A stretch of 64,000 nucleotides of DNA from assembly GCF_046119375.1 (NCBI RefSeq), contig NW_027362767.1, positions 238,452,001-238,516,000 of the forward strand. The letters run 5' to 3'. Origin of the DNA: Phyllobates terribilis (Eukaryota). The position numbers were made by a program. How positions within the stretch are numbered: position 1 is the first letter of the stretch; each line of letters begins with the position of its first letter. This document shows positions 15,270-27,200 of the stretch, in pieces.

Positions 15270-18200
15270 TGACATCTTACCGAACCTCTTCTCTCTCAGC
15301 CGTCTGCGTGGATGGAACCTTTCACAAATACGTCTTCACGCCGGAAGGGAACTGTAACCGCGAGGCCTTCGACGTATATTTGGACATCTGCGATGATGAC
15401 ATTTTTTAAGCTGCTCATTAAGTGAGCTGAAGAAGAAGGGGTCAGCACGGATACCCGGAGGGGCCGCCCCAGTGTATAGGCTCTATGGGAGGCGAATGCT
15501 GCGCTTATACAGTATTATTGTACATAGGTTGTAAGTTATTGTATGTAACCTCAGTGATTCAGATAAAATTATTGTAATAAATATACGTAGCACTAAGGAT
15601 AGAGGAGTCTTATCTGCCTCTAACATTACACTATCACCAGTAATCACAGCTCTTAAAGAGGTATTCTATTTATTACATAGTCATTCCCATATTCATAAAG
15701 GGACAGTTCTTGTAAATGCAAGCAATCTACTGCTTATTAAAATGTTCATCTGTCCTTGAAATATTATCTCCTTTTGTACACAGTTCATTGCCTTGGAGAC
15801 CGACCACCGCTGTTAGAAAGCAAAACGTGAGAAGTGCTTACAAGCTTTTTTTCTATTGAGCTTGGAAGCGCTGTTTAAGCTGCCCAGGATCACTGGAGCG
15901 CGCTTTTACCTCCTAATCCCGGCCATCGTCAGCACAGTACTTACAAGCTAGACAGCAGTGTTGGTCGATCTCCTAGGTATCAGTGGTGGTCGGTCTTCTA
16001 GGCAAACAAAAGAAAAGTTTTAATATCTCAAAAACGGCTGCAAATTTTAACCAGCGGTAAACGGTTTTCTATTTTCAATATCTGCATAAAGATTTGAATA
16101 TCCCTTTAAGTTTGTTTCTTCTGTAGGCTTTGGGAGGGTAAATATAACAGCTATACTCGTCCACTGCTGTTGGTCTTTTTTGATGTCATGACTACACCGC
16201 ACGTGACCGCTGCAGCCAATAGCTAATTTTCTTGTTTTTTTTTTTTTTTACAAGCTAAACCTATAAATGCCCTTTACTGCTTGAAGCCTTGGTACAAATG
16301 GTCAGAGGTCGGACGCCAATGTCCTAGTTCAGTTTGCCCCAGATAATTATCTACCCTTCCTCCATGTAACAGCATGTACCCTTCTTTGCAGTGTTGATCT
16401 CCATCCATTGTTCATGTTCTTATCACTAATCGCATAGCACCAGGGCTAGTGACAGGAGGGAGGCCACCGTCTTGCTGCTTAGATTTAGGGGTGTCACTGC
16501 TGTTCTGAGAGTCCCATAGACTTTAAACTGGGCAGCAGCACATGTGCTCGTCCACTGCTGCCTGCATAATTTGGCTCATTGCTCCCCTGTAGTGTCAGCA
16601 CCTGTAATATTACTGACTGCAAAAGAGTCTCAGGCCAGCACATACTAGAGAAAGTGCAAACAGAGACATGTCCATCTTGAGACTGTAGAGGAGTCTCAGG
16701 ATGGTGCTCACTGACGGTGGGAATATGTGAGCTGTCGGAACAGATACGGCTCTGACTCTTGAGAAATGTAGTCTAGAGGCACAGAGGGAGAGCTGGCAGG
16801 AAGCTCAGGATGTAAACAATAGACCACTGAGAGGGTTGCAGGGGGATAAATGGAGGATAAAAAAGGAAAATAAAAGGTAGCGGGAGTTTGGAACTCATTA
16901 CAGTGACAGTCTTTTTCTTTGTGCCTAGAAAACTCATTTAATTCATTTTTAGAACCAGACTTAAAATCATAGGTTTGTCATGAGGATGCAGGTTTAGTAC
17001 CTGTAACTTTTATCACTGATAACTCAAGACTATAGCAAGTGAGCAAAATGATTCGCAAGACCCTGGTCCAGCGGCCATGGCAGTACTGTATGGCAACTAT
17101 AGTAGGGAACTGAGAAATTGCTGACATTCTCAGCCCTTCTTCTGATCAGTAGGCCCTTACCTATTATGATGTGCGCCATGACATAGAGAGGCCTGCTAAT
17201 CAGAAGAACTGGTGAGGATGTCGGCAGGTAGTAGGAAGTTTACTGTGCTCGGGACCCTGCTTCAGAGATCCATAGGAGACTACTCCCATCTTTCCAAACT
17301 ACACAGCTGTTCCCTGTCACTTGCTACTGTAGGCCAAATCTCTGGAAACTTCCATGGACCGCTAATGCAGGGATTGGCCGCAGGTCTCCTAACCGGAGCA
17401 TGACCGCTTCATGTGTTTCTATGAGGTAGTCACGCACGGGTCAGTCTGTGCATTGCGGATTCGAGTTTTGCATGAACGTCTGCATGAGCCCTTAGGGTTT
17501 TCCATTACGATGTGGAGCAAACCTACTAGAAAAGGGAAAAAAAAACACTACAGGCAAAGGGAGGAGCACGAGAAAGGAACTCTTTTTGAATCCCAGTGTA
17601 ATGCTCCGACCCCTTACTTTAGACCCAGCCTCATATCGTGCATCACTTTCCTCCGGAGCGCCCCTTTCAGGTCTAATTACAGTAAGCCGGGTGTTATCTA
17701 GTGTCTGTAAGACATTTATTTTGTATAAAATCATTGCTCAGGCATATAAAGCATTATGGTCCCAGTCCAGTGTGCAGGAGTTACCTATCTAGCAGCAGAA
17801 TGGAAAGTCTTTTCTCTACAGCGGATTAGGAGGAGTCGGGCTGCGCAGGTCCGAATCTGTCCATCGTCTGCACCACAAGGGAGAGATGCTCCAGAAAAGA
17901 GCTGACGGACACTCGGAGGATACGGGCCTCATCTGCTGTCCAATGTCTGCAGGAATAAAACAGGAGGGGTCAGTCTGTAATAGACAAATATGTGTATATA
18001 TATATATATATATATAATATATATGTCAGAACGTGAGACAGAATGGCATCCCCTCTGGTGCCCACCATAGCTGGATTCTTCGGTTAAAAAAAAATAAAGA
18101 ATTTAATAAAAATAGCTAATAAGCATATTCAGTACTGCCTTGTCCGAAAAAGTCCAATCTATGGTCATATAAAATTATTTAACCCATTAAACATAAGAAA

Positions 18201-24200: not shown

Positions 24201-27200
24201 TATCAGAGACCAACAGCTGACCTCTGCGTCCCAGCGCAGCGGCATATGACGTCACTGCCATGTGCAGATGTCAGCTGCTGGCCTCTGATAGGCCGGTGGC
24301 TGACACTGGTATTGCTGTGCAGAGAGCCGGTCTCTACGCGGCAATACACTGGACTACAGCGCTGATGTCGGCGGCTGCTGGAGAGAGCCGCGATCGTTAC
24401 GGGGTCTGTGCCTGCGGACCACAGGTGCAGAAAGGACGCCGAGGGAACGGAGGACAGGTGAGAATCTCTTTTTTTTTCCTGTCATGTGAAATACAGCACA
24501 CAGGACCTGTGCTCAGTATGGGGGGGGGCACTGTGCGCAGTATGGGGGGACAGGGACCCTGACCGCAGTATGGGGGACGGGGACCCTGCCCGCAGTATGG
24601 GGGAACGGGGACCGCAGTATGGGGGGACGGGGACCCTGACCGCAGTATGGGGGGACGGGGACCCTGACCGCAGTATGGGGGGACCATGTCTGTAATATGG
24701 GGGACCATGTCTGCAATATGGGAGACCATGTCTGCAATATGGGGGACCTGGATGGGGGACCATGTCTGCAATATGGGGGACCTGGATGGGGGACCATGTC
24801 TGTAATATGGGAGACCATGTCTGCAATATGGGGGACCTGGATGGGGGACCATGTCTGCAATATGGGGGACCTGGATGGGAGACCATGTCTGCAATGTGGG
24901 GGACCTGGATGGGAGACCATGTCTGCAATGTGGGGGACCTGGATGGGAGACCATGTCTGCAATGTGGGGGACCTGGATGGGAGACCATGTCTGCAATGTG
25001 GGGGACCTGGATGGGAGACCATGTCTGCAATATGGGGGACCTGGATGGGAGACCATGTCTGCATATGGGGGACCTGGATGGGAGACCATGTCTGCAATAT
25101 GGGGGACCTGGATGGGAGACCATGTCTGCAGTATGGGGGACCATGTCTGCAGGATGGGAGACCATGTCTGCAGGATGGGGGACCATGTCTGCAGGATGGG
25201 GGACCATGTCTGCAGGATGGGGGACCTGGATGGGTGACCATGTCTGCAGTATGGGGGACCTGGATGGGAGACCATGTCTGCAGGATGGGTGACCATGTCT
25301 GCAGTATGGGGGACCTGGAGGGGAGACCATGTCTGCAGTATGGGGGACCTGGAGGGGAGACCATGTCTGCAGTATGGGGGACCTGGAGGGGAGACCATGT
25401 CTGCAGTATGGGGGACCTGGAGGGGAGACCATGTCTGCAGTATGGGGGACCTGGAGGGGAGACCATGTCTGCAGTATGGGCGACCTGGAGGGGAAACCAT
25501 GTCTGCAGTATGGGGGACCTGGAGGGGAGACCATGTCTGCAGTATGGGGGACCTGGAGGGGAGACCATGTCTGCAGTATGGGGGACCTGGAGGGGAGACC
25601 ATGTCTGCAATATGGGGGACCTGGAGGGGAGACCATGTCTGCAATATGGGGGACCTGGAGGGGAGACCATGTCTGCAAGATGAGGACCAGTTCAAAAGGT
25701 GTATAGAAAATAAAATGGTATCACTAAAAATGTCACTTTGTCATGCAAATAATCCAGCCCCCCAAATTAAATGTTTTTCCGTGTGCGGCCCATATGCCCA
25801 GCTGAGTTTGAGACCCCTGGATTAGAGGGAGCAGTGCTCTACAGCTGTTCTTAAACTACAACTCCCAGCATGCCCACACTATCATTGGCAGTCGGGCATG
25901 CTGGGAGTCAGTCTCGTAACAGCCGGCAGAACATTGTTACACAAAGCATCCGTACAAATGGGAATTACCCTTTCAGCAATTGTCCCCCAGGTCTGGCTGA
26001 CCAGGACATGCTGTACAATAACCTGCATGCAGTTCACTTGCACCCCAGGGGTTCGTACCCGACAAGGCGAGGGGTCCGGCGTCAAGAAAAAGTCTAAACC
26101 TAGGACGTGATGTGAATGATGCCCTATATATAGCAGTAAAAACAGGAGCAGTTACTATAGCAACCAGACTCCTGCTCTCATCTCTCTAGGATTCTTAGCA
26201 AAATTAAAGCAGCCACCTGATATGTGCAGTACACAGCCAATCAATTTCTCCCGCTTGCATACATTTTTGCAACCAAACAAATGTCCCTCCCTTCACTCTA
26301 GAATATAAAGGTCTAATACACCAGATGAGACACCACAAGCAGAGCCCCTAATACTGTAATATCGCCCCTCATTCTCCACACCACGTAGAAGGATACAACT
26401 GCAGCGCGCCCGCCGCCATCTTACGTTCTGGCAAGAGGATGTACAATAGAGAAGGCGCGAGCAGTACAGAGCGACATCTGCCTCCAGTCAGTGGAGGACT
26501 TCTTGCTGGTATTTTACAAGGATTAGTCTGCCGCCATCTGCTGGTGGCTGATGAAAGTGCATCTAAAAGATAACGTTATGGAAGTGCTCCCGTGCCAGGG
26601 TTATAATAAAAATGATGAAAGGAAAACATGGTCAATTCAATTACTTTGTCGTCATTTTGGATGTGTCAATAAGGAATTAGTCTACTTAGGAGGTGGGTCT
26701 GACTTCACAGAGTGAACCCCCATTTATTTAGTGACATTCATGGGTGAGAGATAGGACTGAGGAGCCATAAGGGGTGGTGAGCGCCAATAGTTTCATGGGG
26801 TTTGTGGTAGGGAAATCATGGAACAATGATGACAAGCTAGTAGAGGATCTTCTTGGTGGGGGGCACTGAACAGTCTAGGTGGGCTGCAGGTGGTCTATAG
26901 TGTTACCTGTGGAAAGATGTGAGGTGATCAATGGGAGTTAGAAACCATGGGTAGGAGTTAGATATGACAGGTGGTAGAAAGTTTCCACAGTGGGTATATA
27001 GGTGTCACAGGAGGTAGATAGGTGACACAGGAGGTAGATAGGTGTCACAGGAGGTAGGTGACACAGGAGGTAGATAGGTGTCACAGGAGGTAGATAGGTG
27101 TCACAGGAGGTAGATAGGTGACACAGGAGGTAGATAGGTGACACAGGAGGTAGATAGGTGTCACAGGAGGTAGATAGGTGACACAGGAGGTAGATAGGTG

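What the first reader, a model, noticed from the sequence alone, without database searches (positions are those of the whole stretch)
17826..26419. Hidden LAGE3/Pcc1 (KEOPS t6A tRNA-modification subunit) gene missed by the ORF track
A complete 90-aa gene can be assembled on the minus strand from a 23-nt first coding exon, a 129-nt exon and a 121-nt exon, with in-phase junctions, a YY1/CTCF-bearing promoter and a polyA signal. It sits tail-to-tail with WDR45 and head-to-head with RIBC1. Micro-exon plus minor-intron architecture makes it easy for annotation pipelines to miss or truncate. The protein is the minimal Pcc1 fold, lacking the long Gly/Ala-rich N-terminal extension of human LAGE3.
Basis: partly seen in the sequence, partly recalled or inferred. 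Interest (0 to 1): 0.68.

Follow-up and report, generated by a model that had tools for sequence, protein, structure and literature searches.

The report
Ordinary frog LAGE3 gene, minor intron
The region holds a real, intact three-exon frog copy of LAGE3/Pcc1, a small subunit of the complex that modifies tRNA, built the same way as the copies already annotated in many other frogs, so it is ordinary.

Summary
On the minus strand, a 23-nt ATG exon (26419-26397), a 129-nt exon (18793-18665) and a 121-nt exon ending in TAA (17946-17826) add up to 273 nt, which is 90 codons plus a stop. Exons 2 and 3, searched separately, each pass the Pfam Pcc1 gathering score. Together they cover profile positions 4-44 and 47-75 of 75. 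Both match human LAGE3 chain 6gwj_B colinearly.

All 17 database relatives of exon 2 are frog LAGE3 proteins, 16 of them 89-103 aa long. One begins with the same seven residues as exon 1.

Intron 1 (7.6 kb, full of repeats) has a U12-type donor, GTATCCTT, and a TCCATAAC branch site 11-12 nt before the acceptor. Mouse Lage3 is already described as a minor-intron gene.

The neighbours are WDR45/WIPI4 (convergent) and a RIB43A-family gene (divergent). NCBI names the frog orthologues of that gene RIBC1 in some species and RIBC2 in others.

The window is from a frog, not a human. Nothing here is new: it is a routine orthologue. No RNA evidence was available.

The parts
26397..26419 (-). LAGE3 coding exon 1: ATG plus 20 nt (7 codons and the first two bases, TT, of a split Phe codon)
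   Evidence: It is identical to the first 7 residues of Anomaloglossus LAGE3 P0006. It is the only GTATCC-donor candidate of 395.
26412..26422 (-). Exact YY1-type motif AAGATGGCGGC overlapping the start codon
   Evidence: 2 exact matches in the window; 5 with up to one mismatch against 0.94 expected. Motif only; binding not tested. The consensus is recalled.
26530..26544 (-). Full match to the CTCF core consensus (CCASYAGRKGGCRSY), 111 nt upstream of the ATG
   Evidence: 1 match in the window, 0.02 expected. Motif only. The consensus is recalled.
26389..26396 (-). U12-type 5' splice site GTATCCTT at the start of intron 1
   Evidence: 2 matches in the window. The count alone is not above chance (1.73 expected); the position directly after the 23-nt exon is what counts.
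18794..26396 (-). Intron 1, 7603 nt, GT-AG with U12-type signals. It holds a 393-bp repeat (19870-20710), a reverse-transcriptase fragment (22941-23900) and minisatellites (24522-25682).
18804..18811 (-). U12-type branch-site match TCCATAAC (one mismatch to TCCTTAAC). Its adenosines lie 11-12 nt before the last intron base, 18794.
   Evidence: 35 such matches on both strands of the window
18665..18793 (-). LAGE3 coding exon 2, 129 nt (last base of the Phe codon, 42 codons, first two bases of a Val codon)
   Evidence: Pcc1 profile positions 4-44; human LAGE3 residues 65-104
17947..18664 (-). Intron 2, 718 nt, ordinary U2-type (GTAAGT ... pyrimidine run, CAG)
17826..17946 (-). LAGE3 coding exon 3, 121 nt, ending in TAA (17828-17826)
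   Evidence: Pcc1 profile positions 47-75; human LAGE3 residues 108-140
17715..17720 (-). AATAAA, the first on this strand after the stop codon; the likely polyadenylation signal
8749..15406 (+). WDR45/WIPI4 coding exons (convergent neighbour). The last coding exon ends about 2.4 kb from the LAGE3 stop.
31349..33995 (+). RIB43A-family gene (RIBC1/RIBC2; divergent neighbour). Its first coding ATG lies about 4.9 kb from the LAGE3 ATG, with tandem arrays between them. A possible extra upstream coding exon lies at 30370-30456.

Best explanation
This is the frog orthologue of LAGE3 (Pcc1), the small subunit of the KEOPS complex. In KEOPS it binds OSGEP/Kae1 on one side and GON7 on the other, and supports formation of t6A at position 37 of ANN-decoding tRNAs.

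The gene has three coding exons on the minus strand (23, 129 and 121 nt) and gives a 90-residue protein that is little more than the Pcc1 domain.

Intron 1 separates the 23-nt ATG exon from the rest. It is 7.6 kb long, swollen by repeats, and carries the signals of a U12-type (minor-spliceosome) GT-AG intron. Intron 2 is an ordinary U2-type intron.

Transcription most likely starts a short way upstream of the ATG, in a region with YY1-type and CTCF-type motifs. The transcript most likely ends after the AATAAA 106 nt past the stop.

Shown: the exons, their frames, family membership and the splice-signal motifs. Inferred: actual splicing, use of the minor spliceosome, promoter function and KEOPS function.
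For: Family:
- Each exon alone passes the Pfam Pcc1 gathering score, and together they tile the profile at positions 4-44 and 47-75 of 75.
- Both exons align colinearly with human LAGE3 chain 6gwj_B, residues 65-104 and 108-140. Exactly three residues lie between the two stretches on either side, so there is no indel.
- By that register the split-codon Val corresponds to human V106, and the Phe at residue 31 of the exon-3 peptide to human F137. A preprint on human KEOPS describes V106 as part of the hydrophobic core and F137 as contacting OSGEP (passages).

Orthology:
- 17 of 21 candidates in the large protein set match exon 2 at E <= 1e-3. All 17 are anuran LAGE3, 76-90% identical.
- The exon peptides are 100%, 88% and 95% identical to Anomaloglossus LAGE3 P0006.
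- Five frog LAGE3 proteins hit only these two exons in the window (E 1e-23 to 4e-16). Every other hit has E >= 0.38.
- LAGE3 and the RIB43A gene are reported on contigs of identical length in 11 frog species. In Hymenochirus their locus tags are three apart.

Exon 1 and the U12 signals:
- Uniqueness among 395 candidates, the donor GTATCCTT, and the branch site TCCATAAC 11-12 nt from the in-frame acceptor.
- The nearer AG, at 18800-18799, would be out of frame and only 5-6 nt from the branch site.
- Mouse Lage3 is called a minor-intron-containing gene, and was the one such gene down-regulated in the Rnu11 knockout (passage).
Against: - No RNA evidence of any kind was available, so neither junction, the transcription start nor the poly(A) site has been observed.
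- The count of GTATCCTT in the window (2) is no more than chance gives (1.73 expected), and AATAAA is common (94 matches). These signals count only through their positions.
- The branch site has one mismatch to the consensus.
- The mouse paper does not say which Lage3 intron is the minor one, so conservation of the position is inferred.
- The region 26001-27000 is not CpG-rich (observed/expected 0.42), so it is not a classical CpG-island promoter.
- 5 of 16 aligned frog orthologues carry longer or different annotated N-termini, so other first exons or upstream starts may exist.
- The whole-protein score, fold and exact-sequence look-up were not done, because the joined model was left out.
Confidence: 0.92

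Rival explanations
1. The gene is real, but its true first exon is elsewhere, or a second first exon is used as well. The 23-nt exon at 26419-26397 would then be only one of several starts, or a coincidence.
For: Hyla sarda isoform X2 (P0005) has a different N-terminus joined before the same core. Four other frog records have upstream extensions. A 6-of-7 look-alike peptide lies on the minus strand at 31350-31330.
Against: Exon 1 is identical to the N-terminus of P0006 and has the length (7 residues before F) seen in 9 of 16 orthologues. It is the only one of 395 candidates with a GTATCC donor, which pairs with the U12-type branch site at exon 2. The look-alike at 31350-31330 is antisense to the start exon of the RIB43A gene. 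It would give G, not F, at the split codon, is followed by GTGGGG, and shares no DNA similarity with the exon-1 region.
Confidence: 0.05
2. Intron 1 is removed by the major (U2-type) spliceosome, and the U12-like motifs are incidental.
For: The intron ends are GT-AG. A short pyrimidine-rich run (TCGTTTCTTCC) precedes the branch motif. Neither motif is over-represented in the window.
Against: GTATCCTT lies exactly at the donor. A branch-site match lies at 11-12 nt from the acceptor, the spacing I recall as typical for U12 introns. That acceptor is also the one that keeps the frame. Mouse Lage3 is listed as a minor-intron gene.
Confidence: 0.08
3. The locus is an unexpressed or decaying copy (a pseudogene), and the working LAGE3 lies elsewhere in the genome.
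For: No expression data. The first intron is loaded with repeats.
Against: The frame is intact across all three exons. Both split codons are conserved, and exon identity to other frogs is 88-100%. The splice signals are intact. The introns are kept, so it is not a retrocopy. The linkage to the RIB43A gene is the one implied in 11 other frogs.
Confidence: 0.02

Closest known systems
Anuran LAGE3 as annotated by NCBI (e.g. Anomaloglossus baeobatrachus P0006, 90 aa; Bufo gargarizans P0003, 92 aa; Xenopus laevis P0009, 89 aa)
   Same: Same length class (89-92 aa). Same N-terminal pattern, M plus six residues and then F, in 9 of 16 aligned. Same core and same C-terminal tail. Exon-wise identity to P0006 is 100%, 88% and 95%.
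   Different: Only ordinary species-level substitutions. No hit was 100% identical over exon 2 (best 90%), so this species' own protein was not seen among the cluster representatives.
Human LAGE3 (EKC/KEOPS complex subunit, 143 aa; PDB 6gwj chain B, 9fl9)
   Same: The Pcc1 domain aligns colinearly without indels, human residues 65-104 and 108-140. The PDAEP loop, the residue matching V106 and the residue matching F137 are all conserved.
   Different: Human LAGE3 has 64 residues before the aligned core; the frog model has 9. So the long N-terminal extension is absent here, as in all the short frog records.
Mouse Lage3 as a minor-intron-containing gene
   Same: Mouse Lage3 is described as a minor-intron gene whose level falls when U11 snRNA is removed (one passage). 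The frog gene has U12-type signals at intron 1.
   Different: The passage does not say which intron is the minor one. Positional conservation was not tested, because no eukaryotic genome collection was available and supplements were closed.
Yeast/archaeal Pcc1 and plant Pcc1 (PDB 4wx8, 8k20)
   Same: Same Pfam family. Exon 3 also matches Arabidopsis At5g53043 (E 0.0018), and yeast PCC1 weakly (E 0.47).
   Different: Much lower similarity. As recalled, the partner on the far side of Pcc1 differs: Gon7/GON7 in fungi and animals, Pcc2 in archaea. (passages) mentions the archaeal Pcc2 case.

Membership tests
Pcc1/LAGE3 (Pfam PF09341) | Sequence match to the family profile above the curated gathering score | tested here: met
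   Exon 2 alone scores 43.2 bits and exon 3 alone 36.6 bits, against a cut-off of 20.9. Confirmed on the stop-to-stop frames.
Pcc1/LAGE3 (Pfam PF09341) | The whole domain is present and colinear | tested here: met
   Profile positions 4-44 and 47-75 of 75. Human residues 65-104 and 108-140 with three residues between on both sides. Tested exon by exon only.
Pcc1/LAGE3 (Pfam PF09341) | Pcc1 fold (three-stranded sheet flanked by helices) | not tested
   Folding needs the joined protein, and that step was left out. The fold is inferred from about 60% identity to a solved chain.
KEOPS subunit (functional LAGE3) | Residues that human studies tie to core packing and to OSGEP contact (V106, F137) | tested here: met
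   The split-codon Val falls at human position 106 by register, and the Phe at residue 31 of the exon-3 peptide is aligned with human F137. The roles of these residues come from passages of 10.64898/2026.03.03.709218.
KEOPS subunit (functional LAGE3) | Physical binding to OSGEP and GON7; requirement for t6A | not testable with these tools
   No complex prediction was run. It would need the joined protein, and this is a textbook pair.
Vertebrate LAGE3 orthologue | Closest relatives are LAGE3 of related species; conserved gene neighbourhood | tested here: met
   17 of 17 significant hits are anuran LAGE3. LAGE3 and the RIB43A gene lie on contigs of equal length in 11 frog species. That these are the same contig is inferred from the equal lengths.
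U12-type (minor) intron, GT-AG subtype | 5' splice site /RTATCCTT | tested here: met
   GTATCCTT at 26396-26389, directly after the 23-nt exon. The consensus is recalled.
U12-type (minor) intron, GT-AG subtype | Branch site TCCTTAAC about 10-15 nt upstream of the 3' splice site | tested here: met
   TCCATAAC at 18811-18804, one mismatch, with its adenosines 11-12 nt from the last intron base. The consensus and spacing are recalled.
U12-type (minor) intron, GT-AG subtype | Splicing depends on U11/U12/U4atac/U6atac | not testable with these tools
   Needs an experiment or RNA data. Only the mouse orthologue is reported as a minor-intron gene.

The most novel reading that the evidence does not exclude
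The U12-type first intron behind a 23-nt start exon may be an ancient, position-conserved feature of tetrapod LAGE3, shared from frog to mouse. That would make the supply of this KEOPS subunit depend on the minor spliceosome. It would offer a testable link between two kinds of microcephaly: the one seen in minor-spliceosome disorders and the one in Galloway-Mowat syndrome, which is caused by KEOPS mutations. Here the intron is 7.6 kb long and full of repeats, which could make this splicing step limiting.
Probability: 0.3. Interest if true: 0.35.

Novelty: already known. Interest (0 to 1): 0.1.

Why it matters
It matters little beyond correct annotation of this genome. LAGE3 is an essential-pathway gene: it is needed for t6A tRNA modification, and mutations cause Galloway-Mowat syndrome in people. 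A frog genome annotation should therefore contain it.

The case shows that a prokaryote-style ORF list cannot show a gene whose exons are 23, 129 and 121 nt long.

The one point of wider interest is that the minor-intron signals in a frog agree with the mouse report that Lage3 is a minor-intron gene. This hints at long conservation of that dependence.

Tried and rejected
1. A second possible first exon at 31350-31330 (-), a 6-of-7 residue look-alike. Rejected: it is antisense to the start exon of the RIB43A gene, gives the wrong split-codon residue, has no U12 donor, and shares no DNA similarity with the exon-1 region.

2. Extra LAGE3 copies or retrocopies in the window. None: five frog LAGE3 queries hit only exons 2 and 3.

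3. Structured RNAs such as intronic snoRNAs. Rfam at gathering threshold found 0 matches in the whole window.

4. Mapping the remaining WDR45 exons with the Pfam PROPPIN profile on 95 plus-strand frames found nothing further. They were mapped instead with a named frog WIPI4 protein by local tblastn.

5. Settling RIBC1 against RIBC2. The solved structures favour RIBC2 for one exon, the database names are split 14 to 8, and the HSD17B10 neighbour favours RIBC1 only by recalled human gene order. Left open.

6. Literature searches for 'LAGE3' with 'minor intron', 'U12' and 'minor spliceosome' gave one relevant paper. The other four listed under 'U12' were not opened for that question, apart from the KEOPS preprint.

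7. Not run because of low added value, or because they need the joined protein: structure prediction, fold search, complex prediction, the representative-protein search, the protein atlas, and the exact-sequence cluster look-up.

8. The genome-contig collection (bacteria and archaea) was not scanned, because it is irrelevant to a frog gene.
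Full report
**What is there**

- An ATG at 26419 opens a 23-nt stretch, MAAGALQ plus TT, followed directly by GTATCCTTC.
- At 18793 a 129-nt exon begins after ...TTCCATAACCACAGTACAG. It ends at 18665, before GTAAGT.
- At 17946 a 121-nt exon begins after a pyrimidine run and CAG. It ends with TAA at 17828-17826.
- The three pieces sum to 273 nt, which is 90 codons and a stop.
- The split codons are TT|C (Phe) and GT|A (Val).
- The exon-2 frame is closed just upstream by TAA (18807-18805), and the exon-2 peptide has no Met. An upstream ATG exon is therefore needed.
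- The ATG at 26419 is the first in its stop-to-stop frame.
- The window contains no N.

**How the model was searched**

The joined 90-residue product was never built, searched, folded or looked up. This leaves three things open: the whole-protein family score, a structure prediction of this very protein, and an exact-sequence look-up that could have shown whether this species' protein is already in the databases.

**Family**

- Exon 2 alone (42 aa) matches Pfam Pcc1 (PF09341) at E 5.6e-11, 43.2 bits, profile positions 4-44 of 75.
- Exon 3 alone (39 aa) matches at E 6.2e-9, 36.6 bits, profile positions 47-75. The gathering score is 20.9.
- Scanning 128 stop-to-stop frames of 8.4-19.4 kb found Pcc1 only in the two 47-codon frames that hold these exons.
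- Among solved structures the best match of both exons is human LAGE3, chain 6gwj_B. Exon 2 aligns to residues 65-104 (E 1.2e-7) and exon 3 to residues 108-140 (E 2.2e-8).
- Three residues lie between the two stretches in both proteins, so the exon 2/3 junction introduces no indel.
- In that register the split-codon Val sits at human V106, and the Phe at residue 31 of the exon-3 peptide aligns with human F137.
- Passages of a 2026 preprint on human KEOPS (10.64898/2026.03.03.709218) describe V106 as part of the hydrophobic core and F137 as contacting a hydrophobic patch on OSGEP. Both are sites of Galloway-Mowat variants. The same passages place loop 82-93 near the tRNA anticodon loop. That loop corresponds to the conserved PDAEP stretch of exon 2.

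**Organism and orthology**

- A search of the large protein set with exon 2 (longer proteins allowed) gave 17 of 21 candidates at E <= 1e-3. All 17 are anuran LAGE3 ('L antigen family member 3'), 76-90% identical. 16 of them are 89-103 aa long and one is 184 aa.
- The window is therefore from a frog. I do not take it for human; identity to the human chain is only about 60%.
- In an alignment of 16 of these 17 (the 184-aa record P0019 was left out) with the three exon peptides as separate rows, the peptides are 100%, 88% and 95% identical to Anomaloglossus LAGE3 P0006. That protein is also 90 aa long and has the same C-terminal tail.
- The residue at the first split codon is F in 15 of 16. The exception is Hyla sarda isoform X2, which has another N-terminus. 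The residue at the second split codon is V in 16 of 16.
- Nine of 16 have exactly seven residues before that F, as here. Two have eight, and five have longer or different N-termini.
- Five named frog LAGE3 proteins run by tblastn against the window hit only exon 2 (E 1e-23 to 2e-20) and exon 3 (E 2e-21 to 4e-16). Every other hit has E >= 0.38. There is one copy and no retrocopy.

**The first exon and the minor intron**

- On the minus strand between 18794 and 37000 there are 395 ATG-started open frames of up to 60 codons that end at a phase-2 GT donor. 17 of them would give F at the split codon, and only the one at 26419-26397 has a GTATCC donor.
- GTATCCTT occurs twice in the window, no more than chance gives (1.73 expected). 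The argument rests on its position, not its count.
- The match to the recalled U12 branch-site consensus, TCCATAAC with one mismatch at 18811-18804, is one of 35 such matches in the window. Its adenosines lie 11-12 nt from the last intron base. That is the spacing I recall as typical of U12-type introns.
- The nearer AG, at 18800-18799, would be 5-6 nt from the branch site and out of frame.
- A bioRxiv paper on Rnu11 knockout mice calls Lage3 a minor-intron-containing gene. It was the one such gene among three genes down-regulated (10.1101/2021.03.05.434172; one passage seen). The passage does not say which intron is the minor one.
- Searches for LAGE3 with 'minor intron', 'U12' and 'minor spliceosome' found no other relevant text. 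Supplementary lists of minor introns were closed.
- Intron 1 is 7603 nt long. It holds a 393-bp repeat, a reverse-transcriptase fragment (RVT_1, E 1.2e-10) and minisatellite arrays.
- Intron 2 (718 nt) has ordinary U2-type signals.

**Flanking signals**

- An exact AAGATGGCGGC (the YY1 consensus as I recall it) overlaps the ATG. There are 2 exact matches in the window, and 5 with up to one mismatch against 0.94 expected.
- The only full match in the window to the recalled CTCF core consensus lies 111 nt upstream of the ATG, with 0.02 expected.
- The kilobase around the start is not CpG-rich (observed/expected 0.42).
- AATAAA at 17720-17715 is the first on the minus strand after the stop, but the hexamer is common, with 94 matches.
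- These are motif matches only. No binding or usage was tested.

**Neighbours**

- Upstream on the plus strand lies WDR45/WIPI4. One exon-bearing frame matches human WIPI4 (8kbx_A) at E 2.2e-30, against 1.5e-14 for WIPI3. It is 99% identical to Eleutherodactylus coqui WIPI4.
- That frog protein maps to exons from 8749 to 15406. The two genes are therefore convergent, with about 2.4 kb between their stop codons.
- On the other side, a RIB43A-family gene runs on the plus strand from an ATG at about 31349 to 33995. It is divergent from LAGE3, with tandem arrays in the 4.9 kb between the two ATGs.
- Whether this gene is RIBC1 is open. The nearest solved chains to its largest exon are RIBC2, at 94.7-75.6 bits against 68.4-44.1 bits for RIBC1. 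NCBI names the amphibian orthologues RIBC2 in 14 rows and RIBC1 in 8.
- The next gene downstream is HSD17B10, which as I recall neighbours RIBC1 in human.
- LAGE3 and the RIB43A gene are reported on contigs of identical length in 11 frog species. In Hymenochirus their locus tags differ by three, and in Nanorana both lie on a 494,902-bp scaffold. The linkage therefore looks conserved; that the contigs are the same is inferred from the equal lengths.

**Verdict**

The finding is real and correctly interpreted, but ordinary.
- It is the frog orthologue of LAGE3, with the gene and protein architecture that public annotation already gives for many other frogs.
- The short N-terminus is the rule in frogs.
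- A minor intron in Lage3 is already on record for mouse.
- 'Hidden' reflects only that a prokaryote-style ORF list cannot show a gene made of 23-, 129- and 121-nt exons.
- Splicing, transcript ends, promoter activity and dependence on the minor spliceosome remain inferred, because no RNA data or eukaryotic genome collection was available.

Noticed in passing
window 1-8403: A 50-bp satellite of about 168 copies (87% matches) with strong negative GC skew and very low CpG fills the first 8.4 kb. It ends just before the first WDR45 exon.
   Followed up: partly
window 26967-29274 and 30469-31199: Tandem arrays lie between the LAGE3 start and the RIB43A gene: a 20-bp unit x 13.9 copies, a 32-bp unit x 61.9 copies, and 37-40-bp units x about 9 copies. 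Most of the divergent 'intergenic promoter' space is therefore minisatellite.
   Followed up: no
window 37193-39598; 34811-35462; 55296-56138; 62277-64000: Further minisatellites: 29-bp unit x 83 copies, 34-36-bp unit x 18 copies, 31-32-bp arrays, and 31-bp unit x 56 copies running off the window end. The locus is unusually rich in tandem repeats.
   Followed up: no
window 22941-23900 (-): A 320-codon open frame inside LAGE3 intron 1 matches the C-terminal half of a reverse-transcriptase domain (RVT_1, E 1.2e-10). It is a retroelement fragment.
   Followed up: no
window 40545-43675 (+): Exons of a short-chain dehydrogenase whose first hit is human/rat HSD17B10 (3-hydroxyacyl-CoA dehydrogenase type 2; E 9e-18). 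It is the next gene after the RIB43A gene.
   Followed up: partly
window 46822-50320 (-): Remnants of an LTR-retrotransposon-like element in several broken frames: RT RNase H, integrase core, integrase zinc-binding domain and a SCAN-like domain.
   Followed up: no
window 51688-51876 (+) and 60755-61695 (+): Tc1/mariner-type transposase pieces: a Sleeping Beauty-type HTH, a Tc3 HTH and a DDE_3 domain. The second copy is split over two frames.
   Followed up: no
window 54386-54396 (+), within 54001-55000: A second exact AAGATGGCGGC motif lies in the most CpG-rich GC-rich kilobase of the window (observed/expected 0.88, GC 0.56). It may be the promoter of a gene whose coding exons were not detected; there were no Pfam hits in 53.6-60.7 kb.
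   Followed up: partly
window 31330-31350 (-): Antisense to the start exon of the RIB43A gene is a peptide that matches 6 of 7 residues of LAGE3 exon 1. I judged it a coincidence: there is no DNA similarity, no U12 donor, and the split-codon residue would be wrong.
   Followed up: yes
related proteins P0141-P0170: Public annotation names what appears to be the same amphibian RIB43A gene RIBC2 in 14 rows and RIBC1 in 8. The naming of this gene is inconsistent across frogs.
   Followed up: partly
window 30370-30456 (+): The first 29 residues of the 413-aa Ranitomeya RIB43A record match here weakly (66% identity, E 4.7e-4). This suggests an optional upstream coding exon of the RIB43A gene.
   Followed up: no
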